Made by a program: the position numbers and the translations under genes. From Pelagomonas calceolata (taxonomy: Eukaryota), in contig CAKKNE010000005.1 of assembly GCA_918797485.1 (NCBI GenBank), forward strand, positions 3,968,001 to 4,032,000: a stretch of DNA of 64,000 bases, given 5' to 3'. The notes beneath the pieces are model-generated. The model was not told the DNA's origin, did not search any database, and saw nothing but the letters and a program-made list of their open reading frames with translations. Of this stretch, positions 3,984-63,070 are shown piece after piece; position 1 is the first letter of the stretch; the number at the start of each line of letters is the position of its first letter.

Positions 3984-4005
3984 CTAGTGTCTTACAGGCC
4001 GCTAG
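3984..4005 (-). promoter_or_regulatory. 22-bp CTAG-bounded promoter-region element
   Basis: CTAGTGTCTTACAGGCCGCTAG; exact reverse complement of 10067-10088. Confidence 0.7.
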
Positions 4006-4084
4006 CACGATTTTCCAGCGCTGGCCAGCCAGTTCGACGTCGAAGCGTTTGCTCAAGGTGAAGCCCATTGTCGGCCCTTCATTA

Positions 4085-4324
4085 ATGCAAGTTTTGTTGG
4101 GCCTCGAGTCGCGCGCGCGAGTTTCGAGCGGTCGGCGCGCGGACGACTCCTTCTGGAGTAACGCGGCGTTCTGTAGGAACGTCGTGGGCTGCCTCTACCG
4201 AGCCGACGTCGAAGCGTACGTGAGCGCCTGCCGGGCGCCGGCGTTGGGGACCTGCGCGGCCTTCCGTTCCGCCTGCGAGGTGCAGCTCGGGCGGCTCCGG
4301 GACGTGTGCGGGCTGGACGTTTGA
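4085..4324 (+). CDS. Possible small Cys-containing protein (79 aa)
   Basis: ATG 4085 to TGA 4324, GC3-rich, 80 bp downstream of a CTAG element. Confidence 0.35.
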   Translation: MQVLLGLESRARVSSGRRADDSFWSNAAFCRNVVGCLYRADVEAYVSACRAPALGTCAAFRSACEVQLGRLRDVCGLDV

Positions 4325-4406
4325 GCGCACGTCCCCCACCCCTCCCGGACGTAAATATTCACCTTCCTGTGAGGGACTCAGTGCAATGTCCTAGTATCCT
4401 TAGCAA

Positions 4407-6866
4407 CTAGCCCACCTCCATGGGATCCGCCGTCAGCTCCCTCAACATAAAATAGGCCTGCTGCGACCGCACCTCCATGTCCTTCAGTTTGTCGACGTCG
4501 CCCGCGATGTTCGCCAGCCGCGCCGTCCGAGCTTTATCTTCTTCCTCCGTACCCTCGCGCACCTCGCCGAAGACCACGTCTCGCAATTCCGGCGGCAACG
4601 TTAAATCCTGAGCGTCCATGCGCGGCACCTGTTGACCCAACTTCGCCTCGACGCCCTTCAGCAACTCGGGTTCGTCGTACCAGACGCAGTTGCCGCCCTT
4701 CTCAAATTCGCGCGTGTCTTTTTGCGGCGGCTTCTTGCCCCGCTGGCAGAACCAGACCTTCTCTTTTACGGTAGAGACGAGAGACACGGCCAATCCGACC
4801 TTGTCGGCTCGCCCAACTCGACCAATCCTATGAACATAATTCTCGGCAACATCAGGCAAAGTCACGTTGACCACGCAAGGCAATCCAACAACATCAATAC
4901 CCCTAGCTGCCACATCGGTCGCGATCAAAATCTTCACGTCTCCCGCCTTGAAGGCCTCGAGGTTCCTCCGCCGCTCGTGCATCGAGCGCATGCCAGCTAA
5001 CACGCAACACGCGTAGGGCGACTCTTTCCCCGACTCCTTCCTTCCTCTGAAACCACCACTACCGCCGATCTTGTTCAGGTACTTTTCAAATAGGTCGCAG
5101 TCGAGGTTCGTCCGACAGAACACCAAACACTGCTCCATCTTGAGGGAATCGAACAATTTGACAAACAAAGCCGGTTTGGCGAGCTTCACGACCTCTGATG
5201 AATCTTCTTGCGAGGTCTCCAACACGGCCTTGACGTCGCCCTTGAGCAGTGACGGCGCCTCAAATTTATCTAAATCACCCTTGCGGTGGACACTATCAGT
5301 AGTAACACGTTTGTCGTCATCTAGAGACTGCTTGGCTAGTTCTCGAATATCGAGGGACGACGGATCCACAGGTACCACTAAATGCTTCACAGAGTCAGGT
5401 AAGTGCTTCTCGCCCTTCAAATCGACCCACGTCGGGTTGTCGCAGACCTTTCTTGACAACTCCTTGATGGCTTCCGAGTGCAAAGTAGCGGAGAAGAAGG
5501 CCACCTGCAGCCGCCGGTCGCGCGCCGTCGCCGACGCGCCCTTCGGCAATTTCTCGAAGATCTTGAGGCACGTCGCGACGTCGTCCGTCTCGATGAACCG
5601 GTCCGCCTCGTCCAGCGTGAAGAAGCGGCAGGCGTCGACGTCCATGATGCCTCGCTTCACCAAGTCCCAGACCTTGAGAGGCGTGCCCGTCACGATATCC
5701 ACATCTCCATTCCTGAGAGCTTGTTCGGCTTCTTTTGTATTTATACCGCCGATCAGCAGCGCGCATTTGATGTGCGGGTCTTGCAAATAACGAGCATACG
5801 ACTCAATGCAGTCGTGGGTCTGCTCCGCCAGGTCCCGAGCCGGTTCGAGGATGATGGCCGATACCGACCGGCCACTTTTCTGGCGTTTTTTGGTTGACTC
5901 GTACTCGTTCTGGTCCTTACGAAGGCCCGCTTGCAGCTGGGGGCACGCCGCTACGGATACAAACCCTTCTTTCGGGAACTTCAGCTCCGAAAATGATACA
6001 GCCAGCTGCGCGTTCCGCATCGCGACCGCCGGGAAGAGAGCTACACCTTGTAAAGCTGGCGGTAACGGTGCGAAGGCATTGCCAAACGACTTCCCGTTGA
6101 CGTCGAAGCCGCAACTACCCCCTTCGACGTCGAGGTCGAGCCAGCACCTGCGCGGAGCAGCGGTCGCTCGACTCGGTCCGAATGGCCTCAAATTCGAAAA
6201 AGAAACCACCCACTTCATGGTGAGATGGACACGAGTCGCATCGATGGCGTGAAGGCGCCTCCACACGACGGGACGCCGAGATACGCACGTCACGACGTCG
6301 CCTTTGCCGTATTTCGTACCGTAGTCGTCGAACTGGCGGTTGTGACTTTTCTTGGCCGTCGCGCCGAAGCCCAGGCCGTTCTTGTCCGTGCCTAAGTCTA
6401 ACGAGGCCGCTTGGGTTGACCAGCCCGCCCTGCATAGTCCTTCGTCCTCCACACAGATCTCGAAGGCGTACTTGCCACTCTTGGCGGCAATTCCTTGCGA
6501 GCAGCGGCCGCCGGACCACCTTTCTGAACGCGACTGGCACCGGTCATTGTCTACGGCTAAAGTAGCGTCGCGGTCTTGTGTAGATAATGCAGGAGGGCCC
6601 GTCGGCGGCGGCGGCGCCTCTGGTGCCTCCTCGACCGCTGCGGGCGCCTCGGGCTCCTTGAGCTTCTCGTGCACCAGTTCTAAGATAGGTAACGAGAAGG
6701 CCGCCGTCTTGCCGCTGCCCGTCGGCGCGGCGACCATGACGTCGCCGCCGCCCAGGATCAGCGGGATGGCCTCGTCCTGGACTTCCGTCGGGAGCGTGTA
6801 GCCCACGTCATAAATGCCTCGCTGCAGCTCCGGGCTCAGGCCCATGGCCTCGAAGCCGCCGGACAT
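4407..6866 (-). CDS. DDX1: DEAD-box RNA helicase DDX1 with SPRY insertion; in-frame intron 6288-6148
   Basis: Q-motif, APTGSGKT, SPRY region (GLCRAGWS..LDLGTDK.G.GFG), DEAD, SAT, ARGID, HRIGRVGR; splicing restores GDVVT|CWLDLD. Confidence 0.95.
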   Translation of the reverse strand: MSGGFEAMGLSPELQRGIYDVGYTLPTEVQDEAIPLILGGGDVMVAAPTGSGKTAAFSLPILELVHEKLKEPEAPAAVEEAPEAPPPPTGPPALSTQDRDATLAVDNDRCQSRSERWSGGRCSQGIAAKSGKYAFEICVEDEGLCRAGWSTQAASLDLGTDKNGLGFGATAKKSHNRQFDDYGTKYGKGDVVTCVSRRPVVWRRLHAIDATRVHLTMKWVVSFSNLRPFGPSRATAAPRRCWLDLDVEGGSCGFDVNGKSFGNAFAPLPPALQGVALFPAVAMRNAQLAVSFSELKFPKEGFVSVAACPQLQAGLRKDQNEYESTKKRQKSGRSVSAIILEPARDLAEQTHDCIESYARYLQDPHIKCALLIGGINTKEAEQALRNGDVDIVTGTPLKVWDLVKRGIMDVDACRFFTLDEADRFIETDDVATCLKIFEKLPKGASATARDRRLQVAFFSATLHSEAIKELSRKVCDNPTWVDLKGEKHLPDSVKHLVVPVDPSSLDIRELAKQSLDDDKRVTTDSVHRKGDLDKFEAPSLLKGDVKAVLETSQEDSSEVVKLAKPALFVKLFDSLKMEQCLVFCRTNLDCDLFEKYLNKIGGSGGFRGRKESGKESPYACCVLAGMRSMHERRRNLEAFKAGDVKILIATDVAARGIDVVGLPCVVNVTLPDVAENYVHRIGRVGRADKVGLAVSLVSTVKEKVWFCQRGKKPPQKDTREFEKGGNCVWYDEPELLKGVEAKLGQQVPRMDAQDLTLPPELRDVVFGEVREGTEEEDKARTARLANIAGDVDKLKDMEVRSQQAYFMLRELTADPMEVG

Positions 6867-7048
6867 GGTCGCTCGGGAGCTTGTGCAGCTGTGCTCTCGC
6901 TCGCTCTAGGTGCACTGCGGCTCAGCGGCTGGCGGCGGCAGCGTGGTGTGGCAGTTCTTGTGAGTCACTAGCGCTGCTCAGCGAGTGTTCAACGACCACT
7001 GCGCACGAGTATCGAGGCTTCGCCGCTTGCTCGAGCTTCGAGTGATTC

Positions 7049-7070
7049 CTAGTGTGTCTATGAACGCTAG
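7049..7070 (-). promoter_or_regulatory. 22-bp CTAG-bounded element (variant) in divergent promoter
   Basis: CTAGTGTGTCTATGAACGCTAG. Confidence 0.6.
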
Positions 7071-7348
7071 CCGCTGCGTTTTGGCGTTGGCGTTGTCGCA
7101 AACGGCCCAAATTCCCGGTAAGAAGGGCAGTGCTCGCCGGCCTGACCACGTCGGGGACTGAACAGGCTCCCCACGCCATCGACGCGACGGCGTGCGGCTC
7201 CGAGGAGGGAGTGCGCTGCCTAGGCCATTAGGCTGCCCACACCATCCCACCTGCCGCTAGAGGCGGGGCTCCTCATTCATACCAGGGAGGGAGGTTTGCC
7301 GACGACAAGCCAGCCGACGCGGGGCAGCCCCAGAGACCAAACGCGACC

Positions 7349-9001
7349 ATGGCCGAGGTGCGCTGGGACGGCTACGAAGGCATCTACGCCGACCGCGCGG
7401 CGGACCCGCTCTTCAGCCCACGAATAATCGGCACGACGGCGGACCCCGACGACCGCGTGAAGGCGCCGCCCGGCTCATTACCGGCACAGCTCACCGTCGA
7501 CCCCCTCGCGTTCTACCGCGTCACACCATCTGTCAATGAGCCCCGGGAGGACGCCGTCTCCATTGATACTCATAGGAGGGATGAACTCGTCAACGACCCG
7601 GCGTTCTTCCGGCGCGGCATCTTCGCGAAACGAAGTCCTGTGAAAAAAACACCCGACGCCGCACTGATGCAGAAAGCCGTGGTCCTCCAGGCGCGCTGGC
7701 GCGGCGTGGCCTCCAGGCGCGCACTGGCGAATGAAGAGGACGCGAGCGTCGACCGGGCAATCCAAGAGCGCATTCTGAAGCTCATGCGTAATGATGAAGA
7801 CGCGAGCACGAATACGAACCAAACAGTGGAAGCGTTCATGCGCACGCCGGTGTCGACGTGGGTCGACGACAGCGACGCCGCGACGGTCGAGACGGCGACG
7901 GCTCGGACGGCCGAGCCGTCGGTCGACGATCCGTCGATCACGACCTCCCGGAAGGGCGAGATTTTGAGGAGGGCGCTCGTCACGGGTGAACCTATAAGTT
8001 GCGCGGGCCCGGTCCATCTCAATCTGGTGATAGCGTCGGGCAAGCGAAGGGGCCTCGTCGTCGACCATCGAGGCGGCGACGCGGTCACGCGGGAGTGCTG
8101 CTGCTTCCTGCCCTGGGTGCCGTGGCAGCCTTGGCTCCTCTGCGCGTGTTCGGATGTTGTTAGGGTGGGCGGCACCCGCACCTCATTCTTGTGCTGTAGC
8201 TACTCCGACGTCGTCAAGGCGAAGTACTACCCCTCCTCGAAGGCAATTAAAATAGAGGGCTGCCTGAGCTGCTGCGTCCCGCACCCGTTCGGCCAGCACC
8301 TCCACGTGCCCCGGGGCATTTATGGAGTGGACGCGCCGGTGGCGTCCTTTGGGTGCCTGTGCCCCGTGTTTAGGGGGAGGGAGCGCTTCGATCTTTATGA
8401 TGACGGCACGATCCGGCCGGCGCCGCGGCCGGATCTGGTCGTGGGGCGGCGGCACGTCGTCCGCGACAATAGATTATGTCTGGTACGGCATTCAGACGTC
8501 CACCGGCGCCTGGTCTTCAGCGACGTCCTGCGCCAGGCGAAGGCGGGAGGCGGGAAGTGCGTCTGCCCGCGGTGTCGTCGCAAGTGGTGCGGCTGCTGCC
8601 GGCGGTCTTCGTCGAAGCCCGTCGAGCCGGTGCGTGTCAGATTAAAACCTCTGGACGGCGTCTGCCGCTGCCACAAGGCCGCGCAGCGGTCACGTATGTG
8701 CCGGCGCGATGGCACGTGCGCGATCTGCGGCCGGCGGCGCGGCGCGAATAAAGTGAAGGCACCGACGGCGACGACGGCGGGCCAGGACACCTCCATCACC
8801 CCCGCAGAGCGTCAAAAAATAGAGCAGCAGAAGGAACGGGCCGCGCAGCTCGCGCGCCAGGAGGAGGCCCAGATCGACGCGTTCGTCCTTGGTGTTTTAG
8901 GGGAGAAGCGAGGTGCGGCGGCGCTGCGGCGAGAGAAGCTCAAGCCGAAGAACGAGGGGCTCCAGGGCAAGACGCCGGAGGCCGGTTGTGTCGTAATGTG
9001 A
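7349..9001 (+). CDS. Hypothetical protein with IQ-like motif, Cys-rich region and C-terminal CaaX
   Basis: 550-aa ORF; AVVLQARWRGVASRR; ends CVVM*. Confidence 0.7.
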   Translation: MAEVRWDGYEGIYADRAADPLFSPRIIGTTADPDDRVKAPPGSLPAQLTVDPLAFYRVTPSVNEPREDAVSIDTHRRDELVNDPAFFRRGIFAKRSPVKKTPDAALMQKAVVLQARWRGVASRRALANEEDASVDRAIQERILKLMRNDEDASTNTNQTVEAFMRTPVSTWVDDSDAATVETATARTAEPSVDDPSITTSRKGEILRRALVTGEPISCAGPVHLNLVIASGKRRGLVVDHRGGDAVTRECCCFLPWVPWQPWLLCACSDVVRVGGTRTSFLCCSYSDVVKAKYYPSSKAIKIEGCLSCCVPHPFGQHLHVPRGIYGVDAPVASFGCLCPVFRGRERFDLYDDGTIRPAPRPDLVVGRRHVVRDNRLCLVRHSDVHRRLVFSDVLRQAKAGGGKCVCPRCRRKWCGCCRRSSSKPVEPVRVRLKPLDGVCRCHKAAQRSRMCRRDGTCAICGRRRGANKVKAPTATTAGQDTSITPAERQKIEQQKERAAQLARQEEAQIDAFVLGVLGEKRGAAALRREKLKPKNEGLQGKTPEAGCVVM

Positions 9002-9227
9002 TTTTTGTCTATTTTTTCGACGCGGTGTCTCGCTTCTATCGCGTTTAGACCACGTCTCCCGAGCCGCTGACTTTGCGACGTATTCGGATTTACCCGGGTT
9101 TCTCGGCGGGGGTGTCTGTCGTGGTCTATACTCGAGAGGTCTCGCTCTAGAGTCTCTAGAGAACCTCCCGGCGACCCGCACCTCTGGTTTTAGTTGTTAT
9201 TACCCACAGACTCGTAAAGGACGGCCC

Positions 9228-9893
9228 TCACCACGCGTCGACCTCGCTCCCGCCGCCCGACTCGACGGCCGCCATCTCGGCGTCGGTGATGGGCGTCAGG
9301 CCGAAGCGCGGCGCGAGGTCCGCGAGCTCGACGGCGAGGCCCGACGGGACCGCCTCCACGGCCGGCGCCGCGGCGGCGGGCGTAGATACGGGCGCAGAAG
9401 CCTCCTTCTTGAGCAGCGACCGCTTGCCGAGGAATTTGATGAGCGGGACGTGACCGCGCTTCGGCGCCGGCTCGGGCGCCGCGGCGGGCGCCGCGGCCGG
9501 CTCCGGCGCGGCCGCGGGCGCGGCCGCGGGCGCGGCAACGGGCGCCGCGGCGCCGTCCGTGTCCAGCGTCATCATCTCGGCGCCGACCTGGACCTCGTCG
9601 TCGACCGCGACGGACAGACTCTGGACGACGCCCGCCGTGTCCGAGCGCACGTCCACGGACACCTTGTCCGTGTCTATCACTGCCACAATCTCATCCACCG
9701 CAACGGCGTCGCCGACCGCCTTCTCGACGGACGCGACCGTGCCCTCGGTGATCGAGTCGCCCATCGCGGGCACGTTCAGGACGTGCGTCGCGAGGGCGCG
9801 CGCGGCGGCCCGCCGCGGCGCCGCGGCCCGCGCGCCAGCGCTTCGCGGCGCCGCACGGGCGCGTTGGACCACTCGTCCGAGGGTCCGCAGCAT
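9228..9893 (-). CDS. Mitochondrial lipoyl-domain protein with Kgd4/MRPS36-like C-terminus
   Basis: Arg-rich presequence MLRTLGRVVQR; E2o-type lipoyl domain VPAMGDSITEG...DTDKVSVDV; Ala/Pro linker; HVPLIKFLGKR and ITDAEMAAVESGG motifs. Confidence 0.8.
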   Translation of the reverse strand: MLRTLGRVVQRARAAPRSAGARAAAPRRAAARALATHVLNVPAMGDSITEGTVASVEKAVGDAVAVDEIVAVIDTDKVSVDVRSDTAGVVQSLSVAVDDEVQVGAEMMTLDTDGAAAPVAAPAAAPAAAPEPAAAPAAAPEPAPKRGHVPLIKFLGKRSLLKKEASAPVSTPAAAAPAVEAVPSGLAVELADLAPRFGLTPITDAEMAAVESGGGSEVDAW

Positions 9894-10066
9894 GTCTTCT
9901 GTCTGGGGCTGTGCTCGCTTTTGCGCGGAGCGATGCGGTTTCCGCGCAGGGAGACTTGCTCTCCGATGCGTTCGGCGAGCGATGCGTCTGTGACAGGCTG
10001 CGATTTGCACGAGAACTGCTCAACCCGGCGTACTCCGGCCGCAAAGGAAAGGCTGCGCAGCCGGTG

Positions 10067-10088
10067 CTAGCGGCCTGTAAGACACTAG
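10067..10088 (+). promoter_or_regulatory. 22-bp CTAG-bounded element
   Basis: CTAGCGGCCTGTAAGACACTAG, about 175 bp upstream of ATG 9893. Confidence 0.7.
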
Positions 10089-10399
10089 CAAGCAGCGCGA
10101 ACGGCTCGCGTGGAACGTAGCCCCACGCCGAAGCCGTCGACGCTACCCCTAAAACGGAACACAGGGAGTCCCTTACCCCCCTACCACCGCGACGCGCGTC
10201 CGCGTCGCCGCGAAAAAACCTGTGGAGCAAAAGAAACGTGTGTGCGCCCGCACCACCCGCGCGCGCGGAAACGCAAGAACCGCCCGGGGGTCGGTGGCAG
10301 ACAACGGATGCTCTGCGCCGGCAGAACTGGAGCGGCGTCTACGGACGAAGACGAAGCTCCGAAAGGCCAGCGTAAATAAGAAGGACGCCGGTCCACACT

Positions 10400-11005
10400 T
10401 CAAGAAGGCGGCGCGAACCGCTCGGCCCGCGCCTTGAGCTTGGCCTCGTTCGCCTTGACGGCCGGGTCCTTGAACCGCTCGGCCCTTGCCGCTTTTTTGG
10501 CCGCCTCTTCTTTGGCTCTAGGGTCTTCAAATCTCTCCTTCCTAGCCTTCTTCTTCGCCTCGTCGGCGTCGGGGTCCGGCAACCCGAAGCGCTCGGCGCG
10601 CTTCTTTTTCTTCTTCTTGTCGTTTTGTTTCTTGTCCTTCGGCGCCACATACAATGGAATGCCGAAGCGCGCGGCGCGCGCGGCCTTCTTCTTCTCCAGT
10701 TCGCTCAGCTCCTCCGTTGCTGGAGGCGCGGGCTCGGCCGCGGGCTCGGCGGCCGCCGGTTCCGGCGCGGGCGGCGGCGCGGGGGCCGGCGCGGGCGGCT
10801 TTGCTGCCTTGGGCGACGGCGCCGGGGCCTTCTCGGGGCTCGGCGCCGGCGCGGCGGCCGCGGGCTCGTCGAGGCCGAACTCCTCCTCGTCGAGCGCGAG
10901 CTGGAGCCGGTCGACGAGGACGGCCTTGAGGCCGTCCGTGCTCAGGCCGCGCTCGGCGAGCGCCGCGCGGAGCTCCGCGACCTTCATCTTCTTGGGCTCG
11001 ACCAT
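10400..11005 (-). CDS. SARNP: SAP-domain ribonucleoprotein (SARNP/THO1/MOS11-like)
   Basis: N-terminal SAP (MKVAELRAALAERGLSTDGLKAVLVDRL) and repeated RAxRF motifs. Confidence 0.85.
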   Translation of the reverse strand: MVEPKKMKVAELRAALAERGLSTDGLKAVLVDRLQLALDEEEFGLDEPAAAAPAPSPEKAPAPSPKAAKPPAPAPAPPPAPEPAAAEPAAEPAPPATEELSELEKKKAARAARFGIPLYVAPKDKKQNDKKKKKKRAERFGLPDPDADEAKKKARKERFEDPRAKEEAAKKAARAERFKDPAVKANEAKLKARAERFAPPS

Positions 11006-11197
11006 GGTGGCTTGTGTTTGTTTGCGCGGCGCGCTCCTCTGGTGCTCAGCGGGCTACTGCGGCGGCGACGTCTGCGGGCGAACGTCTGCGCTGGGCTGCT
11101 GGCGGGCGGCGGAGGAAGTCAGAGATGTGTCTCTGTGCACCGGTCGTCCGCAATAGCGCGCGCGCGACGGCTGCCAAAGTTTCGCGGGCTCGACACG

Positions 11198-11219
11198 CTA
11201 GTGTGTTACACGACGCTAC
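11198..11219 (-). promoter_or_regulatory. CTAG element variant in divergent promoter
   Basis: CTAGTGTGTTACACGACGCTAC. Confidence 0.55.
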
Positions 11220-11470
11220 CTCCGTTTTTGTTCGCATCCCGCAAAATCAGCGCAAACGCGTGATTGGATCGATAGGTGTATCCGACGCAGCGCCTAGACG
11301 CTGCGGTGCTTGATTCTCGCGCGAGTTTTGACAGCTTTCGCACCCTACAGCCTCGCAGAGCATAGCACCTTATTTGCACGCGTTCTGCCACGCGCCACGC
11401 GAACACGCGAACGACAGTTCGGCATCGACACGTAAACACGAACTACAGTCCGGCATCTCGACAGTACGCG

Positions 11471-13170: not shown

Positions 13171-13314
13171 CTTCTCTCCTTCTTTGTTTGTTGTTGATAA
13201 GTCTTCCGTTCAAAATCAGAGTCGATGTTACGGTGCTAGGACTAGTGGGCGGAGCCCCGGGGGGGAGACACCGCGCTTCGCCGATTCATCGGCGGCGGGC
13301 GTTCAAAATCCTTG

Positions 13315-13336
13315 CTAGCGGCTGGTAAGACACTAG
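13315..13336 (+). promoter_or_regulatory. 22-bp CTAG-bounded element
   Basis: CTAGCGGCTGGTAAGACACTAG, about 160 bp upstream of ATG 13498. Confidence 0.7.
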
Positions 13337-13497
13337 CAGGCAGGCAAGCTTGCTCTTGCCAGCCGATTGCGCCCTCACTCTGGTGTAAGAGTGGCCGTGG
13401 ATCTACACATTGCTGCTCTCATCGCTGCCTTGTGCTCGCTGCCAACTTTCAGCTCCTGCAACGGTCGGGAAGCCGCGAAACTATCCGCAGTGCTTAA

Positions 13498-14637: not shown

Positions 14638-14643
14638 TTGTTG

Positions 14644-19802: not shown

Positions 19803-20554
19803 CCTGCGCGGGCTTTGATTCGAGCGCGTGCGCCGCCGCGGCGTGCGATTTGTGCGTTTGTGTCAGCGCTCGGAGAGAAGATTAGTTATCATGAATAGTT
19901 CGTCTCATGAGCGGAGCTCCGCGCGTTGCGGCGCGTGCTTGCTTCGGAAACGAGGAATAAAGGGGTCGTCAGTGCGCTGCTCTCGTCTTGGTCGGCTGTT
20001 TTGAGGCGCTGGGTAATTGCAGCGCTTTTTGTGCTGTTGGCGCTGTTGCAAAATGGTTATAGGTGGAGGTAGTCACCACGTAGCTGCCGTTCGCTGCGTC
20101 CGCGCCGCTGTGCCGCTGTTTGCAGTGCGGTGCGTTCAGCCTGCTGCACTCGCTTAGGGGTCGTCAGCGTTCGCTGGCGTTGGTGTGGCGACCGCTGCGG
20201 AGCTATGCGCTGCTCGTGCAGGCCCGCGCAACCCTACGCGCAACCCTATAAGCACGTCCGCGTCGTCGTTCGCCGCGGCACCGAGCTAGCGTACAAAAGC
20301 TCTAGGATTGGCCCAATTTTGGGCACCAAAAGCGCGTGCTCGCTTAGCTGGACACCAGTAGAGTTGCGCACGCCACTCGAGTTGCTGCTCGCTGCGACAT
20401 AACTGGTCCGCGAACCTCAAAGCGTTTACGCACGGTCCTCCAGCGATTGGCAGCGATATCCACTCTGGATCCAAGCACCCAATTCTAGGCGTCGCGTCCA
20501 ATTCTACCACTCGCTCACCAATCCTACCACTATTCCAAGGCTGAGATTCCAAGC

Positions 20555-21544: not shown

Positions 21545-21566
21545 ATAGCGTAATGTAACACACTAG
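21545..21566 (+). promoter_or_regulatory. CTAG element variant preceded by tandem AGCGTAAT copies
   Basis: ATAGCGTAATGTAACACACTAG, about 50 bp upstream of TPI ATG. Confidence 0.55.
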
Positions 21567-29226: not shown

Positions 29227-29246
29227 CTAGTGTGTCGTTGCACTAG
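29227..29246 (-). promoter_or_regulatory. 20-bp CTAG-bounded variant in divergent promoter
   Basis: CTAGTGTGTCGTTGCACTAG. Confidence 0.45.
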
Positions 29247-34099: not shown

Positions 34100-34121
34100 C
34101 TAGCGGCCAGTAAGACACTAG
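34100..34121 (+). promoter_or_regulatory. 22-bp CTAG-bounded element in divergent promoter
   Basis: CTAGCGGCCAGTAAGACACTAG. Confidence 0.7.
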
Positions 34122-46646: not shown

Positions 46647-46668
46647 CTAGTGTCTTACATGCCGCTAG
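46647..46668 (-). promoter_or_regulatory. 22-bp CTAG-bounded element in divergent promoter
   Basis: CTAGTGTCTTACATGCCGCTAG. Confidence 0.75.
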
Positions 46669-47992: not shown

Positions 47993-48012
47993 CTAGCGGC
48001 GTAAGACACTAG
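47993..48012 (+). promoter_or_regulatory. 20-bp CTAG-bounded element
   Basis: CTAGCGGCGTAAGACACTAG. Confidence 0.65.
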
Positions 48013-50473: not shown

Positions 50474-50495
50474 CTAGTGTCTTACAGGACGCTAG
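50474..50495 (-). promoter_or_regulatory. 22-bp CTAG-bounded element in divergent promoter
   Basis: CTAGTGTCTTACAGGACGCTAG. Confidence 0.7.
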
Positions 50496-51623: not shown

Positions 51624-51647
51624 AATCTAGGTAAACTTAGCACATCT

Positions 51648-54020: not shown

Positions 54021-54035
54021 ACAATTAACCAAAAT

Positions 54036-54968: not shown

Positions 54969-55180
54969 TCGGCTCGGTCTCTTGCACCGGTCCGCGGTTG
55001 TGCGGCTGTGGATCTGCTGTGGCGCCTGGGGTGCTTATGGATAACTTCGATATGGCTTTGCCTAGAGTATGGCTGCCTGGACGTGCCTGCGCTTGCAACG
55101 ATGTGGCTTTGCCTTTACGTGCCTGTGCTGCAATTAAGCTATGCGGTGTGGTGCTGCAAAAAAGCGGCAAAACGCCGGTG

Positions 55181-55202
55181 CTAGCGTACACAGACACACT
55201 AG
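55181..55202 (+). promoter_or_regulatory. 22-bp CTAG-bounded element (variant)
   Basis: CTAGCGTACACAGACACACTAG. Confidence 0.6.
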
Positions 55203-55266
55203 GAAAAACAACAAAGCGCTGTGCCGTCGGGCTGCCCCCGCCCCATCAGCAGTCGCCCAGAGAAGG

Positions 55267-55875
55267 ATGGGCAACGACGTCGCCAAGAACTGCGCGAACC
55301 GCATGGCCATCGGCGCCATGTCCAACGTGACGGACCTGGAGCGGCCGGTCATCCAGCGCATGTCCGAGAAGCTGGCCGATATTGCTAAAAGAGAGGGTTC
55401 CAAAGATCTCGTGACGAAGGAGGAGTTCGGGGAGGCCCTGAACGGTTTGGAGATCACGCAGAGCGACCGGGACATCCTGGATCGCATCTTCGTCATGCTC
55501 GACCGCACGGGCGAAGACAGGATCAACCACAAGGAGTTCATCGTCGGCATCGTGCCCTTCGCGCTGGGCAAGACGGAAGAACTGATCCAGATGGCCTTCG
55601 AGCTGTTTACGAACAACGCGTCGGATCGCGTGACGCCGATGGATTTGAGATTTATATTGATGACGCTGAACACGGTGGCGTCGTATTTTGGGGATCCGGT
55701 CATGACCGTGGCGCAGGTCGACAAGGTCGTGGACGACGCGGCGGACAAGCTCGACCCGCCGCCCAAATCGGGCGAGCTGCTCATGGCCGAGCTGTCGCCG
55801 TACGTAGCCGACCACGAGTTCGTCCACGAGTTCGTCGAGGGCAAGGGGACCTCGCGCTACGGGAATAAGTTGTAG
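55267..55875 (+). CDS. EF-hand calcium sensor (calcineurin B/NCS-like), possibly myristoylated
   Basis: MGN start; IFVMLDRTGEDRINHKEF; MAFELF. Confidence 0.75.
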   Translation: MGNDVAKNCANRMAIGAMSNVTDLERPVIQRMSEKLADIAKREGSKDLVTKEEFGEALNGLEITQSDRDILDRIFVMLDRTGEDRINHKEFIVGIVPFALGKTEELIQMAFELFTNNASDRVTPMDLRFILMTLNTVASYFGDPVMTVAQVDKVVDDAADKLDPPPKSGELLMAELSPYVADHEFVHEFVEGKGTSRYGNKL

Positions 55876-55965
55876 TCCACAGGCTCCTGGCTAGGCTGGT
55901 GGTATCTCCCGCGAACTTGAAGAGATCCGCGAAGCCCGCCGGGAAATTACTAGTACAAGACAAGT

Positions 55966-58900
55966 CTACTCGTGCGGGAAGAGCGACTCGACCACGCCTT
56001 CGACCACGACGGCGCACGCGTTCACGGCCGCGAAGAAGCACAGCGTCAGGCCGAAGATGCAGTTCATCGCGGCGCCGCGCTTGCGGATGGGCTCGAGCAG
56101 CTCGGTCGCGCAGACGTCTGGCGCGTCGCCGTGCGCGAAGGGCCCGTCTAATCTAAACAACGGCGCGTGCGCCTGGCCGAAGGCGCAGGCGAGCGCCACG
56201 GCCGGCCTTTCCAAGATCCATCGCGCGAGGTTTGGCGCCGCGCCGATCTCCCGCGCGAGCGAGAACATGTACAGGCCGTAGTCGACCTGTGTGTGGAAAT
56301 CAACAACGCCGTAAATTTTGATTTGCACACAGGTGTCGATACGCCGTAGCTCAGGCGGCAATTCGTCAGTTTGTAGGGCGCCGACGGCACGCGCGGCCCC
56401 GTCGCGCGGCCCTGGAGCTTCGCCACCCACCACATGGCCTGCAACTCGCTCATCGGCGGGATGGCGCCGACGTTCGGTCGCGCGAAGCCGAAGAACGCGA
56501 GGTCACCTTCCTCCGGGTCGCAGATGAAATGCTCAGTCGGCAGCGCATCGTCCTGGCCTGTGTGGAAATCAACCAGTGAGTTGGGTTATTCGCCGCGTCG
56601 ATGGCGTGGGGCGCCTGAAATTTGATTTCCACACAGGCCTCGGCCGTCCGACGCCCTCTTCAGAAAAGGGAACGTCTGCCTGTAGCCCGTCGCCAGGACG
56701 ACGACGTCCGCGGCCACTTCCACGTCGTGACGGTCGTCGGCCCGCGTCGACCGGAAGCGCACCGCCCGCCCGCCAAAGCTAGCTGCCTCGTAGTGGTCGA
56801 GCAGGTCCACACCTGTTCATAAATCAAATTATCGCGGCGCGTCGACACATGACCTCCACGCCATCGACGCGAACCCACCGACTCACTGTTTGATTTGCGC
56901 ACAGGTTCACGCCGACGGCCACGTCCGCCTGCGCTTTATCCAACCAGCGCCACGGCCGCGCCCACCACGCCTCCTTGGGGCCGCGGTTGATGAGGGGCAT
57001 GCACCTGTGTGGAAATCAAACAAGTGAGTCGTGGAGGTCGACGAAGGTGCATTGAAACTATCTCTGCACAGGGTATGACTTCGTGGCCTTGTTCACGATG
57101 TGTTTCCGCCCTTCCGCCCAGTCCATCGCGTCGGCGCGGCCGCGCCATTGGTTCCATCCGGCTGACGAGCCGCTCACGCAGAGCATCCCAAGCCGCTGGA
57201 ATTTCGTCGTGATGAACCAATGAAAACCAACACGCCGCGACCTGTGCGCAAATCAAATAGTGAATCGTGATTGCGCCGCGAGAATTTGATTTATTCACAG
57301 GCCGCAACCAGCTCGACTCCCAGCAGTGCGTGCCGGCGTTCGCAATTAAACAATCCAAAGGCGCGAAGTCCTCGCCAAACGACGCCGGCACCTGTGTGGA
57401 AATCAAATTGTCGTGGCGCGTCTCCGCCAGTGCTGAATCATGACCTTACGCCATCGACGCGACGCCACCTCGATGGCGTGGCGGCGTCGCGTCGATGTCG
57501 TGGCGGTGTGGGCCTTACACGACTCGATTCAGTCCTCAGGGCAGCGTCGTCGCCGAGAAATGACTTGGTGAAGATTACACCCGACACACTGGTTGATTTT
57601 CCACACAGGCCGGCACGCTCACGAAGCCTCGCCGCGTCGCCAGCGTGACGTGGGCTGCATTGTTTGCGGCGGCTGCGTGCGCGACGTCGAACGCTGTCTC
57701 GCCGCAGCCGACGACGACCTGTGTGGAAATCAAATTTCGGGCGCCCCACGCCATCAACGCGTCTCCGTATCCCTAAATAGCTGCATCTGCTCGATGGCGT
57801 GGTCCCAGGCCATCGACGCGACGTTTCCCCGTGACCGCGTCGGTTCCATGGTGTGGAGGTTAACGAAGGTCCACGCAATACCTAACTCACTGGTTTATTT
57901 CCACACAGATGACGACGACGCGCTTGTTTTTGAATATCGAGGACTCCTTATAGTCCTGCGAGTGAATCACAAGACCCTTGAAGGCGCCGGGGATGTCCGG
58001 GACCTTCGGCTCTTGGTGCAGACCTGAGCAGACTGCCACGCGATCAAAGGGCTCCACGGTCCTGTGACTCCCGTCGAGCAGTGTCGCTCGGTAGCCACGT
58101 CTCGTTTTGTCGAGGACCTCGACCGTGGCGTGCCGCATGTACCGCATGAGGTCGTGCTCGACCGCGCTGTGTGTGGAAATCAACCAGTGAGTGAGATTAT
58201 TGCGGAGACCTTCGTGAACCTCCACGCCATCAAGCAAATGCAGTTGCGGGGACGACGTCGCGTCGATGGCGTGGGGCGCCTGAAATTTGATTTCCACACA
58301 GGTCGACTACTAGGTATGGAGGTACGCGACGTAGTCGTCGAGGCTCTGGTGCGACTCGACCTCCGGACCTAACCTCAAGTCGGAGAAGGGTGTGATGTAC
58401 TTGCTCGAGACCTGGTGCGCGCCCTCGTAGGCGTCGGCGAAGACGCCGCCGATCTGGCCCGTCTTCTCGACGATCACCACCTCGGCGCCGTTCTCCAGCA
58501 GCGTCTTCGCCGCGGCGAGCCCCGACGCGCCGGCCCCGATGACGAGGACGCGACCGAGCGGCTTAGCCTCGGCGGGCGCTTCGTAGGCGTCGCGCGCCGC
58601 CGCGGCTCGCAGCGCCAGGAAGAACGCAAAAGCAGCTCCGGGCGAGAATACGAGGGACGCCACACAGAATACCGCCGCCGTCGTCGGCCCGCGGTCGCGG
58701 CGGACGGCGTCCGCCGAAATCACGGCGCACGCGACGAGGTCCACGAAGATCGATTTTTGGCAGTCCGTCGCCGGCCAGCACGCGACGCGGTCTCGTCTCC
58801 AGGCTATAAGGACGCCGAGCACCGCGTAGACGCCGGCCTCGTCGAAGGACCGCCCGAACGACGGCAGCCAGCGCGGCGCGACGAGCAGGAGGTGCAGCGC

Positions 58901-59389
58901 CTTGAGGACAACACCGAAGGTGACCGCGTCGGTCACGGCGAGCTGGGGCAGCCTCTGGACCGCGAGCAGCGCTAGGACCGAGCAGACGACGTAGGCGAGC
59001 GGCACGCGCGTCGAGCGCTTCTGAAAGCTCGGCGGCGTCAGCGCGAAGGCGGCGCTCATCGCGCCCAGCATGCCCGTCCAGAGGAGCTCCGCGGGCTCGT
59101 GCCGGCACCAGAGCGCCGCGACGACGACCCACGTGAGCAATTGGCACGAGTTACGATCGTGCGGCGCCTGGAGCACGTCGGCGTAGGCGTCGTCGAAGAG
59201 ATTGTCGCCGCCCCGGGCCTTGTAGGCCGTCGTGTAGCGTAAGATGTAATACCAGGTGACGGCGACGAGCGCCGCAGCGATGCTCGCTTGTTTGGCAGAG
59301 GTGCGTGTCAGCTGCTTGCGCAGCGCCCAGGTGAGCACTGCAAAGTAGCACCATACTTGCCAGTCGTAGAGCAGGTCTTGCACTGGCAT
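55966..59389 (-). CDS. Flavin-containing monooxygenase fused to an N-terminal multi-TM domain; 9 exons
   Basis: VIGAGASG, IHSQDYK, VVVGCGETA, LATGY, FFGFARPNVGAIPPMSELQAMW; frame restored by removing introns 58310-58167, 57916-57719, 57616-57392, 57308-57242, 57079-57005, 56912-56813, 56644-56558, 56342-56287. Confidence 0.85.
56287..58310 (-). mobile_element. Cluster of eight introner introns (56-225 nt)
   Basis: Each is bounded by CTGTG...CAG TIR-like ends after an 8-10-nt lead that resembles the next exon (e.g. perfect GTGCCGGC at 57616). Confidence 0.9.
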
Positions 59390-59510
59390 TTTGGTCGCCG
59401 CAAGATGTTGACGCTTGCGGAGCGTTGCAAAACTAATCGTGCCGTACAAAAATGCGACCAATTCGCATTGATGTGCGCATGCGCGGCCTGTTTTCCGCGG
59501 GTGAAGCTTG

Positions 59511-59532
59511 CTAGTGTCTTACATGCCGCTAG
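59511..59532 (-). promoter_or_regulatory. 22-bp CTAG-bounded element in divergent promoter
   Basis: CTAGTGTCTTACATGCCGCTAG. Confidence 0.75.
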
Positions 59533-59598
59533 CCCGCTCCCAGACTCAAAGACCTTACTCAAATGTTCGCAGCGTCCCTAGGGTGCTAGTTGCGCTAG

Positions 59599-60976
59599 AT
59601 GATGGACAACTTGCTTCGCGTTGTTGCGCTGGCATCACTTGCGCCACTCTCTGCGGCGGAGAAGGCTGATCTCTACGGCGCGGCGGCGCCGGCGACTTTG
59701 CTCCCGCGCCACCGACGCGACTGGGATTACTGCACGGCGAATTTGTGCGGGGGCGCGGAGCGGCTCGGCGCGCTGCTTGACGCCGGTGACCTGCGGGAGC
59801 TGGGGCCGGAGGGCGCTGACAGGATTAACGATGCCGTCCGAGCCTATGGCGTGGTCGTCATCAAGGGGCAGAATCTGACGCGCGCGGAGCAAGTCAAGTT
59901 CACTCGGCTTCTCGGCGAGCCGGTCGCGCTGGCGAAATCCTTTTACGGGAAAGACCCGGAGCCCAATCAGCCGTCGATCTTACGCGTCACCAATTTCTGG
60001 GCGAATGGCACTTGGAAGGGCACGAGTCACAAATTCGGCGACTACTGGCACCAGGACGGCCAGTTTTGGGACGCGCCGAAACCTGTGTGGAAATCAACCA
60101 GTGAGTCGGGTGCACGGGGCCGTGCTGGCTCCGTCGAGCGGCAAGGAACCGGCATCGCCACGCCATCGAGCAGGCGCCGCGTCGATGGCGTGGAGGACGA
60201 CGCGATGATTCGAACGCGCCGTAAAATTTTGATTTTCACACAGGCCGAAACACAACATGCTGTCGATCGTGCACGCCCAGCAGGTGCCGCCGCGGGGCGG
60301 GGAGACGGGATTTGTGGATATGCGGGCCGCGCGGGCGACGCTGTCCGCGCCGCTTCTGAAACGCGCCGCCAAGGCGGCGATCCACGCGTCGGTTCGAGAG
60401 ATCAAAGACTTCCGAGGCGGCGACGAGGAAGACTTCGCCATGTTCCCGAAAGTGGCCGTCCACCCCCTGCTGGCCAATCACTACGTGGACTCCGGCCCGC
60501 TGCTGTACGTGGGGTCGCCGCACATGAAGGTACACGGCTGCGTGGAAATCAAAATTTTATGACGTGTTCGCTGAATCGACGCGTCGACCTCCACGCCATC
60601 GACGCGACGCCTGCTCGATGGCGTGACGATGCCGGTTTCTCACCGCTTGACGGGGCCAGCACGGCCCGCGGCGTCATCGCCGAGATATGACTTGGTGAAG
60701 AATTATCGGGTGCACCCGACACACTGGTTGATTTCCACACAGGTACACGGCCTCGAAACGCCCGAGGCCGGCAAGCGGCTCCTCAACATGTTGCTCGCGC
60801 ACGCGACGTCGCCGGCCTTCCAGTATTTCCACGCCTGGGAGGCGGGCGACGTCGTCGTCTGGGACAACTCGCAGACGCTGCACCAGTCCATGCCCTACGA
60901 CAACGACGGTCACGCCCGGCGGGAGTACTACCGGTCGCAGGCTCGGATAAGGCCGCCGGCGGTGGCGGAACTCTGA
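59599..60976 (+). CDS. TauD/TfdA-family 2OG-dependent dioxygenase (introns 60075-60243, 60530-60742)
   Basis: YGVVVIKGQ, WHQDG, GGETGFVDM, HPL, HAWEAGDVVVWDN..TLH. Confidence 0.9.
60075..60243 (+). mobile_element. Introner intron (169 nt, GC-AG)
   Basis: Perfect TSD GCCGAAAC; TIRs. Confidence 0.92.
60530..60742 (+). mobile_element. Introner intron (213 nt, GT-AG)
   Basis: Perfect TSD GTACACGG; TIRs. Confidence 0.93.
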
Positions 60977-61029
60977 TCGTGCATATTCTCTGTGTATTAG
61001 CTTGTAAATATTGTTCACATACCACAAAA

Positions 61030-62895
61030 TTACTCGTCCACAGAGAACGTAGGCGCGACGCTCCCCAGAGACTCGTACGCGAGCCGCTTGACGAAGTCGT
61101 CGTACGGGTCGTCGCCGCGCCGCTGCAGCAGGTACTCCACCTGGAGCTCGACTTGCGTGCGCACGGCGCCGTAGAGCGCGTCGCAGGCGTCCGCGTTCGC
61201 CGGGTCGACGGCCGTCGTGTGGAAGGGCCGCCCGAAGAGGTAGTAGTTGCGGCGCGGCGCCGCGTTCGGGGCCATGAGCGGTGGGACGAACGTGTCTCCA
61301 TCTACTAGGCTCACCAAGGACTCGGTACGATTCCGCAGGAACTCGCCTGCGTGGAAATCGACGCGTCGACGGCGTCGGACGCCTTAAGATGATCCCTACG
61401 CGGGCCGCTCGCCGACGCGGTTGTCCATCGTCAACAAATCGTCGGTATCCAAGGCATAAGCCTCGTTCCCGAAGAACTCGTCGCCGCCCACGCCCGCGAA
61501 AGGTATGATGGTGGCGTTGAACTTGGCGGCGATGCGCACGAGCGCCGACGAGTCCGAGGGCCACCGCAACGTATAAGCCTCGCCCTTGCGCTTGAAGACC
61601 TCCCGCGCGCCGCCGGGGAACACGAGCGCCTTGGCGCCACGCTTCAACGCCGCTATAAGGGTCTTCGCGCCCGCCGGCTCTCCTCCGAACCGCCGCAGCA
61701 TCGCCGCGGACCCGGGTAATGGATAAGGCAGCGGCGCGAGCGGGCTCTCATCTGCTAAAAGTGGAGGGTACACCAGCGGCGTCAGGGCGAGCCGCCTTTC
61801 TCGTAGAAACTCTTCCACAATATGAACGCCGTCCAAACCAAAAAGCTGGTGGTTGCCCACGAAGAGCACCGGTCCCTCGCTCGGGACGTTGAAGAGGCCG
61901 TCCTCGACGGAGCCATCTGCCGCGGTCGAGAAGAATCGCGGCGACACGAGGCGCCGCGCGGCGAGCATCGACCGCTCGATGGGCGTCGTGGCCGTGACGC
62001 CATTTGAAGCCCGGCGCGGCGCGCTCGGGAGGAGGCCGTTATCAGCAAAAACGTCCAGCAGGTTCGCCGCGTCAAACAAGACGTGCGGCGCGCCGCGCTC
62101 GATGCGGACCGTCGCGCCCGGGATTAATTGCGCGAGCCTTCGCGCCTCGCGCACGGACGGCAGCACCGCGTCATTCTCCGAGGCCACGAGCACGCAATTA
62201 GAGGCCCAGCGCGGCGGCGCCTTGAGCCGCTTGAGCGCGTCGTTGACGGACGCCGCGCCGTTCCGCAACAGAGCTCTCTCGCGGTGCGTGAGCGTCTCGC
62301 GGGGCAACGCCGCGGCCAGGCCCTCGCCCAGCGCCGCCGTCCAGCCGGGCCGGCCCATGATCGGCGTCACGACCGGCGCCAGCGTCTCGTAGACCCGCGT
62401 CGGCAGCCTCGGCAACAACCCGGTGATGCGCGAGACCGGCGCGCGCGCGTACGACGACGCGCTGTTGCACAGCACGAGCGACGCGACGCGCTCGGGGCGC
62501 GCGAGCGCCAGACCTAAAGCCGCCAGCGCGCCCATCGACTCCGCCACGATGTGCACTTGACCGTCCGGCGCCGCCGCCGCCGCCGAGGCCGCGAGCCGTA
62601 CGAGGTCGCCGTGCGACGACCGGTCCGACGGGTCCAGTACGAGCGCGCGCACGTCGAACCATTCGCCTAAGCGCTTCCAGTTCCGTGCGCCGACGCGCGG
62701 CGAGCCGTCGAGGCCGCCGAGGGCCAGGAGCACCGGCTTATCGTCCGTGCATTCGGGATCGACGCGGACGAAGCGCGCCGTATCGAGCGCTTCCGGCACT
62801 TCCGTGAACTGGCGGCGCGTCAGTGGCGTGAGTTTGTGTGCTTGAGGTGCGAATGCACCGGTGCACGCTACGAGCAGCGTCGCACGAGTCAGCAT
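61030..62895 (-). CDS. Alpha/beta-hydrolase plus acyltransferase (phytyl ester synthase/ELT-like); GC-AG intron 61412-61347
   Basis: Signal TGA-FAP; GGLDG, AESMG, PVLFVGNHQL, FPGGARE..KRKGEAY.L.W. Confidence 0.85.
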
Positions 62896-63048
62896 GTTTC
62901 AAGGTGATTTAGTCAGCGGGTGCAAAAGTGACGGAGAAGCTGCAAGGAAGTCGTAAGATTGAACGCAGATAATTATATCGTTGCTCGTCGCAGCGCCTCT
63001 GGAACTCTCCTAGGCTGGACAAAAGCAAGAGGTTGGCAAAAAAACGAG

Positions 63049-63070
63049 TTAGCGGTCTGTAACACACTAT
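63049..63070 (+). promoter_or_regulatory. 22-bp element variant centred in divergent gap
   Basis: TTAGCGGTCTGTAACACACTAT. Confidence 0.5.

What the first reader, a model, noticed from the sequence alone, without database searches (positions are those of the whole stretch)
3984..63070. A 20-22-bp CTAG-bounded element marks most promoters, once each
Seen: consensus CTAGCGGC(A/C)TGTAAGACACTAG, in either orientation, at 3984, 10067, 13315, 23756, 34100, 46647, 47993, 50474 and 59511. Copies 23756, 46647 and 59511 are identical, as are 3984 and 10067. Variants lie at 7049, 11198, 15957, 20286, 21545, 29227, 55181 and 63049. Every copy is about 50-260 bp from the nearest start codon, mostly a single copy within a head-to-head gap; I saw none in CDS or tail-to-tail gaps. 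Inference: this is long and invariant for an ordinary TF site. It could be a core or bidirectional promoter organiser, a nucleosome-phasing or origin signal, or a domesticated mini-transposon/footprint whose CTAG ends are a target duplication. I know of no description of it.
Basis: partly seen in the sequence, partly recalled or inferred. Interest (0 to 1): 0.88.

Follow-up and report, generated by a model that had tools for sequence, protein, structure and literature searches.

The report
Two-way promoter element of Pelagomonas
In this stretch of a small marine alga's genome, 17 of 23 gaps that hold gene starts carry one copy of a 20-22-letter DNA tag, RNA 5' ends pile up about 25 letters beyond either of its edges, and it is likely the landing site of a still unknown protein that sets where genes start in both directions.

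Summary
Real. All 17 copies are at the stated places. A matrix trained only on 127 metagenomic copies recovers 15 above any null score; 20286 and 29227 score at noise level. The alga is a pelagophyte, very likely Pelagomonas calceolata. Copies occupy 13 of 15 head-to-head, 4 of 8 tandem and 0 of 15 tail-to-tail gaps, none in coding DNA. The full unit is AG-CTAGCG-N(2-4)-GTAA(G/C)ACACTAG-CAAGC, a pseudo-palindrome with a variable middle. All 7 listed RNA 5'-end pile-ups in element-bearing gaps lie 19-47 bp outward from an edge (6 at 23-32 bp), on either side. Arms are kept while the spacer changes, and no pool of decayed copies is seen. Oriented flanks outside both CTAGs argue against a target-site duplication. 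Best reading: the binding site of an unidentified general factor at the centre of short two-way promoters, working like yeast Abf1/Reb1/Rap1 sites (0.68). A transposon origin is not excluded. I found no description in 10 literature searches. This scan already found the same element in two other windows of this genome.

The parts
3984..4005 (-). Element, 22 bp, upstream of serine acetyltransferase (ATG 3877, minus strand) and a small ORF at 4085 (plus)
   Evidence: 39.8 bits; RNA 5' pile-up at 3952, 32 bp out
7049..7070 (-). Variant element, 22 bp, between a DEAD-box helicase (6866-) and an ORF (7349+)
   Evidence: 20.1 bits
10067..10088 (+). Element, 22 bp, tandem gap, 174 bp upstream of a lipoyl-domain gene (9893-) and about 90 bp past the RNA 3' end (10178) of the SAP/Tho1 gene
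   Evidence: 44.1 bits
11198..11219 (-). Variant element, 22 bp, between SAP/Tho1 (11005-) and a phosphoesterase (11471+)
   Evidence: 32.0 bits; RNA 5' pile-up at 11171 in all 4 runs (27 bp out) and at 11179
13315..13336 (+). Element, 22 bp, tandem gap before ORF 13498+
   Evidence: 38.2 bits
15957..15978 (-). Variant element, 22 bp, between ORF 15861- and a BART-domain gene (16134+)
   Evidence: 17.1 bits; RNA 5' pile-ups at 15910 (-, 47 bp out) and 16001/2 (+, 23-24 bp out)
20286..20305 (+). Weak 20-bp variant, head-to-head gap (19802- / TspO 20555+)
   Evidence: both arms present, but 9.0 bits is noise level
21545..21566 (+). Variant element, 22 bp, tandem gap before triosephosphate isomerase
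   Evidence: 32.6 bits
23756..23777 (+). Element, 22 bp, head-to-head gap (23679- / 23842+)
29227..29246 (-). Weak 20-bp variant, head-to-head gap (exportin-1 29020- / 29576+)
   Evidence: 9.3 bits is noise level
34100..34121 (+). Element, 22 bp, head-to-head gap (33843- / kinesin 34391+)
46647..46668 (-). Element, 22 bp, head-to-head gap (RSN1_7TM 46496- / mitochondrial carrier 46911+)
   Evidence: RNA 5' pile-up at 46695 (+, 27 bp out) in 2 of 2 runs
47993..48012 (+). Element, 20 bp, tandem gap before VAMP7 (48177+); its right TA is followed by GTC-TA-GCAAGC
   Evidence: (29.5 bits)
50474..50495 (-). Element, 22 bp, head-to-head gap (GST 50350- / serine acetyltransferase 50667+)
55181..55202 (+). 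Variant element, 22 bp, centred between two divergent RNA 5' ends only 71 bp apart
   Evidence: 20.9 bits; pile-ups at 55154 (-, 27 bp out) and 55225/6 (+, 23-24 bp out)
59511..59532 (-). Element, 22 bp, head-to-head gap (59389- / TauD 59599+)
   Evidence: 43.7 bits
63049..63070 (+). Variant element, 22 bp, head-to-head gap (62895- / FSH1 63220+)
   Evidence: 24.7 bits

Best explanation
The element is a pseudo-palindromic DNA site (arms CTAGCG and CACTAG, a spacer of variable length, weak oriented flanks) that sits once in most promoter gaps with RNA 5' ends 19-47 bp beyond either edge, and it is likely bound by one abundant, unidentified sequence-specific protein that would keep a short gap open and fix transcription start on both sides. 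Shown here: the sequence and its make-up, its promoter-only placement, RNA 5' ends just outside either edge, and arms kept while the spacer varies. Inferred: a two-contact or dimeric protein binder with a flexible spacer (lengths 20-23 bp are tolerated); a role as a general regulatory factor site that acts as a barrier for +1 nucleosomes and/or recruits the initiation machinery; and selection for one site per promoter, so that one site serves two head-to-head genes in a genome with about 11% intergenic DNA.
For: Placement: 17 of 23 promoter gaps, 0 of 15 tail-to-tail gaps, none in CDS. Independent metagenomic copies: flanking genes point away on 45 of 61 and 42 of 57 callable sides. Of 39 sites with both sides called, 20 are away/away and 3 toward/toward, against 95 and 133 of 459 random positions. 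RNA: all 7 listed 5'-type pile-ups that fall in element-bearing gaps lie 19-47 bp from an edge, 6 of them at 23-32 bp, off both the CACTAG end and the CTAGCG end. Selection-like pattern: anchoring on the 8-bp core alone gives 14 window hits; 12 have both arms intact or nearly so, and about 2 are expected by chance (my estimate). Substitutions concentrate at spacer positions 7-10 with biased letters, while unforced position 11 is 97% G. Linkage between variable positions is weak: 4 of 66 pairs at p < 0.01. In likely orthologous pairs the element stays while the flanks align poorly: L021/L048 (82-87% coding identity) with spacer changes, and L063/L110 as 22 vs 21 bp. A CG-poor band lies 130-169 bp out on sides with a gene running away (p 9e-5 and 9e-8 for predicted ATG beyond 175 bp, n = 55), not on 'toward' sides (n = 36).
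Against: No binding protein was identified and no chromatin data were seen. The RNA ends come from poly(A) Illumina reads of one sample, not capped-end mapping. 8 and 9 rows of the two tables were not shown, and several other pile-ups are internal to genes. One promoter with a clear RNA 5' end (53425) has no element, and 6 of 23 promoter gaps lack it. L035 is 92% identical to the 46496 gene but has no element in the 235 bp upstream, where the window has one at 151 bp. No significant nucleosome-length periodicity: WW and GC% peaks at 180-184 bp were matched by 16 and 13 of 60 controls. The CG bands were chosen after seeing the pooled profile. No initiator bias 13-46 bp out. The orthologous pairs were picked for having the element on both sides, so they cannot show loss.
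Confidence: 0.68

Rival explanations
1. The element is a tiny TA-duplicating mobile unit or a fixed transposon scar (TA-[GCGKC...GACAC]-TA) that lands near transcription starts because the DNA is open there. It marks promoters but does not make them.
For: The inner ends form a 4-of-5 inverted repeat inside two TAs, and length varies in the middle. TA-flanked short inserts do occur at these promoters and at the element's own TAs: 6 of 143 right arms, one internal case (L024), four TA-GC-TA on the left. In L045/L092 the element lies in opposite orientation at what looks like the same place. L035 lacks it. 30-70-bp modules are shared between unrelated promoters.
Against: Information outside both CTAGs is asymmetric and turns with the element: A at -2 is 52%, A at +2 and +3 is 69% and 66%, and CAAGC flips with the unit in L092. 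There is no decayed pool, mostly one copy per gap, and weak haplotype structure. Variation is mostly substitution at four positions, while the CG in the left arm is kept in 16 of 17 window copies. Only 27 blast pairs arose among 272 flanks, so most copies share no longer repeat.
Confidence: 0.12
2. The element began as a transposon end or MITE, spread, and was then kept because a transposase-derived factor binds it and drives transcription, as with CERP2/CELE2 and HIM-17 in Caenorhabditis. In function this equals the best explanation; the origin differs.
For: It is long for a factor site, has terminal inverted arms inside TA, and is found only in Pelagomonas-like DNA in the collections scanned. 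There is a precedent (10.1101/2022.01.21.477252, passages).
Against: No larger parent element or shared flanks for most copies. No non-promoter reservoir in the window, whereas Caenorhabditis has thousands of non-promoter m1m2 pairs. No transposase was found in the window.
Confidence: 0.12
3. The element is a replication-origin or chromatin-boundary signal that shares promoter gaps only because they are the main open DNA.
For: It is orientation-free and occurs about once per 4 kb. Absence from tail-to-tail gaps is not significant by length (P = 0.11).
Against: The tight 23-32-bp offset to RNA 5' ends on both sides. One copy per 4 kb is far denser than known eukaryotic origins (own knowledge).
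Confidence: 0.05
4. The element works as a single-stranded hairpin or a small structured RNA.
For: The arms can pair on one strand, with a G-T wobble.
Against: 0 of 5 folds beat shuffles (z from -1.35 to +0.86). No Rfam match in the window. The element lies upstream of the RNA 5' ends.
Confidence: 0.03

Closest known systems
Yeast general regulatory factor sites (Abf1, Reb1, Rap1, Cbf1); PMC2897762, passages read
   Same: One site in many unrelated promoters, at open promoter DNA, and lineage-specific with turnover between species. Abf1's site is bipartite with a spacer (recalled).
   Different: This site is longer (about 29 bp with flanks), has a 2-4-nt spacer of variable length, covers 74% of promoter gaps in this window, and lies only about 25 bp from RNA 5' ends on both sides. 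Its protein and its effect on nucleosomes are untested.
MITE-derived m1m2 promoters (CERP2/CELE2) bound by the THAP protein HIM-17 in Caenorhabditis; 10.1101/2022.01.21.477252, abstract and passages
   Same: A paired motif with variable spacing in many promoters, and a possible transposon ancestry.
   Different: No parent MITE, no non-promoter reservoir and no binder were found here. The element is at general promoters, not tissue-specific ones.
Oomycete core promoter elements INR, FPR and DPEP of Phytophthora infestans; PMC3599244, abstract and section 12
   Same: Stramenopile, TATA-less, a long lineage-specific motif next to the start site.
   Different: Those motifs are directional and lie at or downstream of the start (INR+FPR in about 13% of genes). 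This one lies upstream, works in either orientation and sits between divergent starts.
Animal housekeeping and bidirectional promoter motifs: ZNF143/SBS-ACTACA, DRE-DREF, Ohler motif 1 bound by M1BP (all recalled; no call)
   Same: Long motifs near the starts of TATA-less, often divergent housekeeping genes. Motif 1 ends in CACACTR, like the right arm here (a lead only).
   Different: No test of homology was possible. These factors are animal-specific and the resemblance is probably chance.

Membership tests
General regulatory factor (GRF) site | One motif recurring in many functionally unrelated promoters and depleted elsewhere | tested here: met
   17 of 23 promoter gaps, none in CDS, beside genes of unrelated Pfam families
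General regulatory factor (GRF) site | Fixed position relative to transcription starts, independent of orientation | tested here: met
   7 of 7 listed pile-ups in element-bearing gaps at 19-47 bp, off both ends; not capped-end data
General regulatory factor (GRF) site | Lies in a nucleosome-depleted region and phases flanking nucleosomes | tested here: inconclusive
   AT-richer for 80 bp and a CG-poor band at 130-169 bp; periodicity not significant; no MNase data
General regulatory factor (GRF) site | Bound by an abundant sequence-specific protein whose loss closes the gap | not testable with these tools
   needs pull-down and depletion
TA-duplicating transposon, MITE or footprint | Target-site duplication bounding the unit, with flanks unrelated to its orientation | tested here: not met
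   oriented AG and CAAGC flanks outside both CTAGs
TA-duplicating transposon, MITE or footprint | Empty alleles at orthologous sites | tested here: inconclusive
   one unascertained comparison (L035 vs 46647): element absent, but the DNA does not align
TA-duplicating transposon, MITE or footprint | Neutrally decayed copies and subfamily structure | tested here: not met
   12 of 14 core hits intact, the rest at chance level; weak linkage
TA-duplicating transposon, MITE or footprint | An autonomous partner with matching ends | not testable with these tools
   no whole genome held
Core promoter element read by general transcription factors (TATA-like) | Position about 25-35 bp upstream of the true start | tested here: inconclusive
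   element centre is 33.5-42.5 bp from 6 of 7 pile-ups; true capped ends unknown
Core promoter element read by general transcription factors (TATA-like) | Directly bound by TBP/TFIIB or a substitute | not testable with these tools
   needs biochemistry
Structured RNA or DNA hairpin | Stable fold beyond shuffles, or a family match | tested here: not met

The most novel reading that the evidence does not exclude
The element is itself the core promoter: one pseudo-palindromic 22-bp site sits where TBP, TFIIA and TFIIB normally bind and is read in either direction. One site then launches two divergent genes whose starts are only 71-91 bp apart, too close for two separate initiation complexes. Most genes of one of the ocean's most abundant eukaryotes would start from a single TATA-replacing, two-way element, possibly bound by a transposase-derived protein.
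Probability: 0.22. Interest if true: 0.85.

Novelty: new variant of a known kind. Interest (0 to 1): 0.58.

Why it matters
Promoter grammar in photosynthetic stramenopiles is almost undescribed. A single long element at half to three quarters of promoter gaps would give a direct bait to identify the factor. It would also give a compact two-way promoter part for pelagophyte genetics, and a simple marker for gene starts in Pelagomonas genomes and metagenomes. It makes a standing question testable: whether one central site, not two back-to-back core promoters, can drive divergent transcription in a very compact eukaryote.

Tried and rejected
Whole-genome scan: no genome is held, so copy number is extrapolated.

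Viruses: 4 exact matches in IMG/VR. They lie in viral loci of 44-49% GC with no sign of pelagophyte DNA and are read as chance.

Prokaryotes: 13 matches in GTDB. 7 (L130, L131, L133-L136, L141) look like Pelagomonas-type fragments joined into marine MAG contigs; 6 look like chance.

Rows dropped before counting: L001-L004, the bacterial-looking L031, L073 and L111, and the duplicate L015, leaving 127 of 136 matches.

Hairpin or RNA role: rejected.

A longer repeat carrying the element: a module shared by 46585 and 63095 looked like one. An exact-type search found it in 0 of 129 loci, and blast found one looser copy at another distance (L013). Rejected as a general explanation.

Helitron 3' end (hairpin + CTAG) was considered for the module at 13230-13305 and not pursued.

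Nucleosome periodicity: not significant. Initiator motif: none seen.

Literature: 10 searches. The motif strings hit only a yeast primer. The P. calceolata genome preprint has 0 occurrences of 'motif' and 'promoter' in its main text; its supplements were closed and may bear on this. Subscription papers on pelagophyte genomes and on Aureococcus chromatin are outside the library.

Other pelagophyte genera could not be examined. Both read-laying runs went to RNA, so strain-level presence/absence in DNA was not tested.

Full report
**Observation.** All 17 coordinates carry the stated sequences. The 22-bp consensus gives 8 matches at up to 3 mismatches, against 0.00 expected from 100 shuffles. I trained a two-block matrix with a free spacer on metagenomic copies only. 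It scores 15 of the 17 window sites at 17-44 bits, while 8 Markov nulls gave nothing at 14 bits. 20286 and 29227 (about 9 bits) are in the noise range, as are two other hits, 45537 and 59578 (the null was trained on the unmasked window).

**Organism.** The window is eukaryotic, about 63% GC and intron-bearing. The best species-named relative of its VAMP7 is from the pelagophyte Chrysophaeum (72%). Proteins from 4 of 10 ORFs tested in element-bearing loci cluster with proteins named Pelagomonas calceolata. GC content and introner-like introns match the P. calceolata genome preprint (10.1101/2021.10.25.465678, passages). The species is thus inferred, not given.

**Placement.** I annotated genes by hand from ORFs, Pfam (35 proteins) and stranded RNA. 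The element occupies 13 of 15 head-to-head gaps, 4 of 8 tandem gaps and 0 of 15 tail-to-tail gaps, and never coding DNA. Promoter gaps are 14% of the window, so P = 4e-15. The tail-to-tail zero alone is not significant (P = 0.11). The head-to-head status of 3984 rests on a small ORF whose RNA reads differ from the window. One part in 64 of the metagenome collection gave 126 stretches, about 10,000 estimated in all. I dropped 4 viral loci, 3 bacterial-looking loci and 1 duplicate, leaving 127 of 136 matches. A codon-score classifier (right on 13 of 15 window tail gaps) found genes running away on 45 of 61 and 42 of 57 callable sides. Of 39 sites callable on both sides, 20 were away/away and 3 toward/toward, against 95 and 133 of 459 random positions. 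If the window is typical, a genome of about 32 Mb (size recalled) holds some 7,000-8,500 copies. The scan's earlier notes on other windows say about half of promoter gaps.

**Anatomy.** The 127 copies give AG-CTAGCG-(G/T)C(C/A)T-GTAA(G/C)ACACTAG-CAAGC, with lengths 22 (86), 21 (34) and 20 (7); these lengths and 16 positions were forced by my pattern. Unforced flank searches add 23-bp forms. The arms are a near-palindrome, CTAG(C/T)G. Information continues outside both CTAGs and is oriented: G at -1 80%, A at -2 52%, C at +1 77%, A at +2 69%, A at +3 66%; it fades to background by +7. Variation concentrates in spacer positions 7-10, with weak linkage (4 of 66 pairs at p < 0.01). Anchoring on the 8-bp core alone gives 14 window hits; 12 have both arms intact or nearly so, and the other 2 match my chance estimate of about 2. 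So there is no pool of decayed copies. No stable hairpin forms (0 of 5 folds) and Rfam finds nothing.

**Transcription starts.** Raw stranded poly(A) reads of one sample were laid on 3000-16500 (4 runs) and 44500-64000 (2 runs). Among the listed 5'-type pile-ups, eight distinct ones fall in promoter gaps. Seven are in element-bearing gaps: 3952 (32 bp from the edge), 11171 (27; a minor one at 11179, 19), 15910 (47), 16001/2 (23-24), 46695 (27), 55154 (27) and 55225/6 (23-24). They lie off both the CACTAG end and the CTAGCG end. Two elements sit between divergent ends only 71 and 91 bp apart. The eighth, 53425, has no element. Other listed pile-ups are internal to genes, and 8 and 9 rows were not shown. 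These are fragment ends, not capped ends; true starts may lie some bases closer to the element (own knowledge). No initiator bias shows 13-46 bp out.

**Evolution.** Four likely orthologous comparisons exist. L021/L048 (82-87% coding identity) keep the element with spacer substitutions. L063/L110 keep it as 22 and 21 bp. L045/L092 have it inverted, with CAAGC inverted too. L035, 92% identical to the window gene at 46496, lacks it in 235 bp of unalignable upstream DNA. The first three pairs were ascertained on both sides. Most flanks are unique (27 blast pairs among 272 flanks), although short modules are shared between some promoters. TA-flanked inserts land on the element's own TAs, in line with earlier finding e1-10420781. 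Viral and prokaryotic collections give only chance hits or chimeric contigs.

**Chromatin hint.** DNA is AT-richer for 80 bp on both sides. CG drops at 130-169 bp on each side separately (p 0.003 against the inner band, 1e-4 or less against the outer band; the GpC control is mostly flat). The band is sharp where the predicted ATG lies beyond 175 bp (n = 55), absent on 'toward' sides (n = 36), and not reproduced as a trough when anchoring on ATG. The bands were chosen after seeing the pooled data, and a periodogram gave no significant nucleosome-length period. Linker CG methylation by DNMT5 is reported for the pelagophyte Aureococcus (PMC9998398, passage), which makes phasing plausible. It is not shown here.

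**Mechanism.** Most likely (0.68) one abundant protein contacts both arms across a flexible spacer, holds a short gap open and sets starts about 25 bp out on either side. It would do so as a barrier for +1 nucleosomes, by recruiting the initiation machinery, or both. Rivals: a promoter-seeking TA-duplicating scar with no function (0.12); a domesticated transposon end with a transposase-derived binder (0.12); an origin or boundary signal (0.05); a hairpin (0.03). The element works like yeast GRF sites (PMC2897762, passages), but membership needs the binder and nucleosome data. It fails two tests for a transposon footprint. It differs from the directional oomycete INR/FPR/DPEP elements (PMC3599244, abstract and section 12), and lacks the parent MITE and reservoir of the Caenorhabditis case.

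**Novelty and verdict.** Ten searches of the open library found no description. The only motif-string hit is a yeast primer. Preprint supplements and subscription papers were not seen. This scan already reported the element from two other windows of the same genome (e1-10738571, e1-10738598). My reading was recorded before I saw them, and their agreement is not independent evidence. Verdict: a real, apparently undescribed two-way promoter element, a new variant of a known kind, interest 0.58. The boldest reading left open is a single TATA-replacing core element read in both directions (0.22).

Noticed in passing
window 48009-48022; L023, L068, L070, L108, L024, L037, L061, L100, L116: Short TA-flanked inserts sit on the element's own TA dinucleotides: TA-GTC-TA, TA-GGCATCC(C)-TA and a near reverse form, TA-CAGG-TA inside the core, and TA-GC-TA four times on the left. 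They look like footprints of a TA-targeting transposon that hits these open sites.
   Followed up: partly
window 46585-46620 and 63095-63131; L013: A 35-bp module (TG-rich, CTAG-ended, with a telomere-like AACCCCCT) lies beside the element at two unrelated window promoters at the same distance, and in one metagenomic locus further away.
   Followed up: partly
window 13230-13305; L057, L078, L082: A 70-bp module with a small palindrome is shared between unrelated promoters. Minus-strand RNA reads fit it and then run on unlike the window at 13300, so a transcribed copy lies elsewhere or the sequenced strain differs here.
   Followed up: partly
window 1417-1589, 12089-12278, 30480-30826, 49440-49610, 52440-52640, 56280-58300, 60080-60742: Many related introner-like introns (CCACGCCATCGACGCGAC core; TGTGGAAAT and TTCCACACAG ends); the gene at 59389- holds about ten. 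Introner elements are already reported for P. calceolata.
   Followed up: no
window 10217-10397: An intron in the 3' part of the SAP/Tho1 gene, shown by 21-43 spliced reads per run; the RNA 3' end is at 10178.
   Followed up: yes
window 4158-4334 and 9039-9071: RNA reads carry dense fixed differences and loose ends here, so the sequenced strain or a paralogue differs from the window in these gaps.
   Followed up: no
window 53198-53544, 39482-40090, 570-1321, 16652-17003, 31604-31901, 38119-38500: Six promoter gaps lack the element. 53425 is a clear RNA 5' end without one. Lone CTAG and GCTAG half-sites are 3-5 times denser in promoter gaps than elsewhere even with the elements masked.
   Followed up: partly
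L130, L131, L133-L136, L141: Seven GTDB marine MAG contigs appear to carry Pelagomonas-type fragments with the element, that is, chimeric assemblies. The motif could serve as a contamination flag.
   Followed up: partly
L005, L008, L014, L032, L039, L067, L088: A multi-copy gene family at 70-78% nucleotide identity turns up in 7 of the loci sampled. The L039 copy encodes a 352-aa protein that looks by eye like RING-CH plus TPR repeats; not scanned against Pfam.
   Followed up: no
130-169 bp outward from the element (pooled loci): A CG-poor, CA/AG-rich band on transcribed sides, anchored on the element and not on the predicted ATG; its meaning is unexplained.
   Followed up: partly
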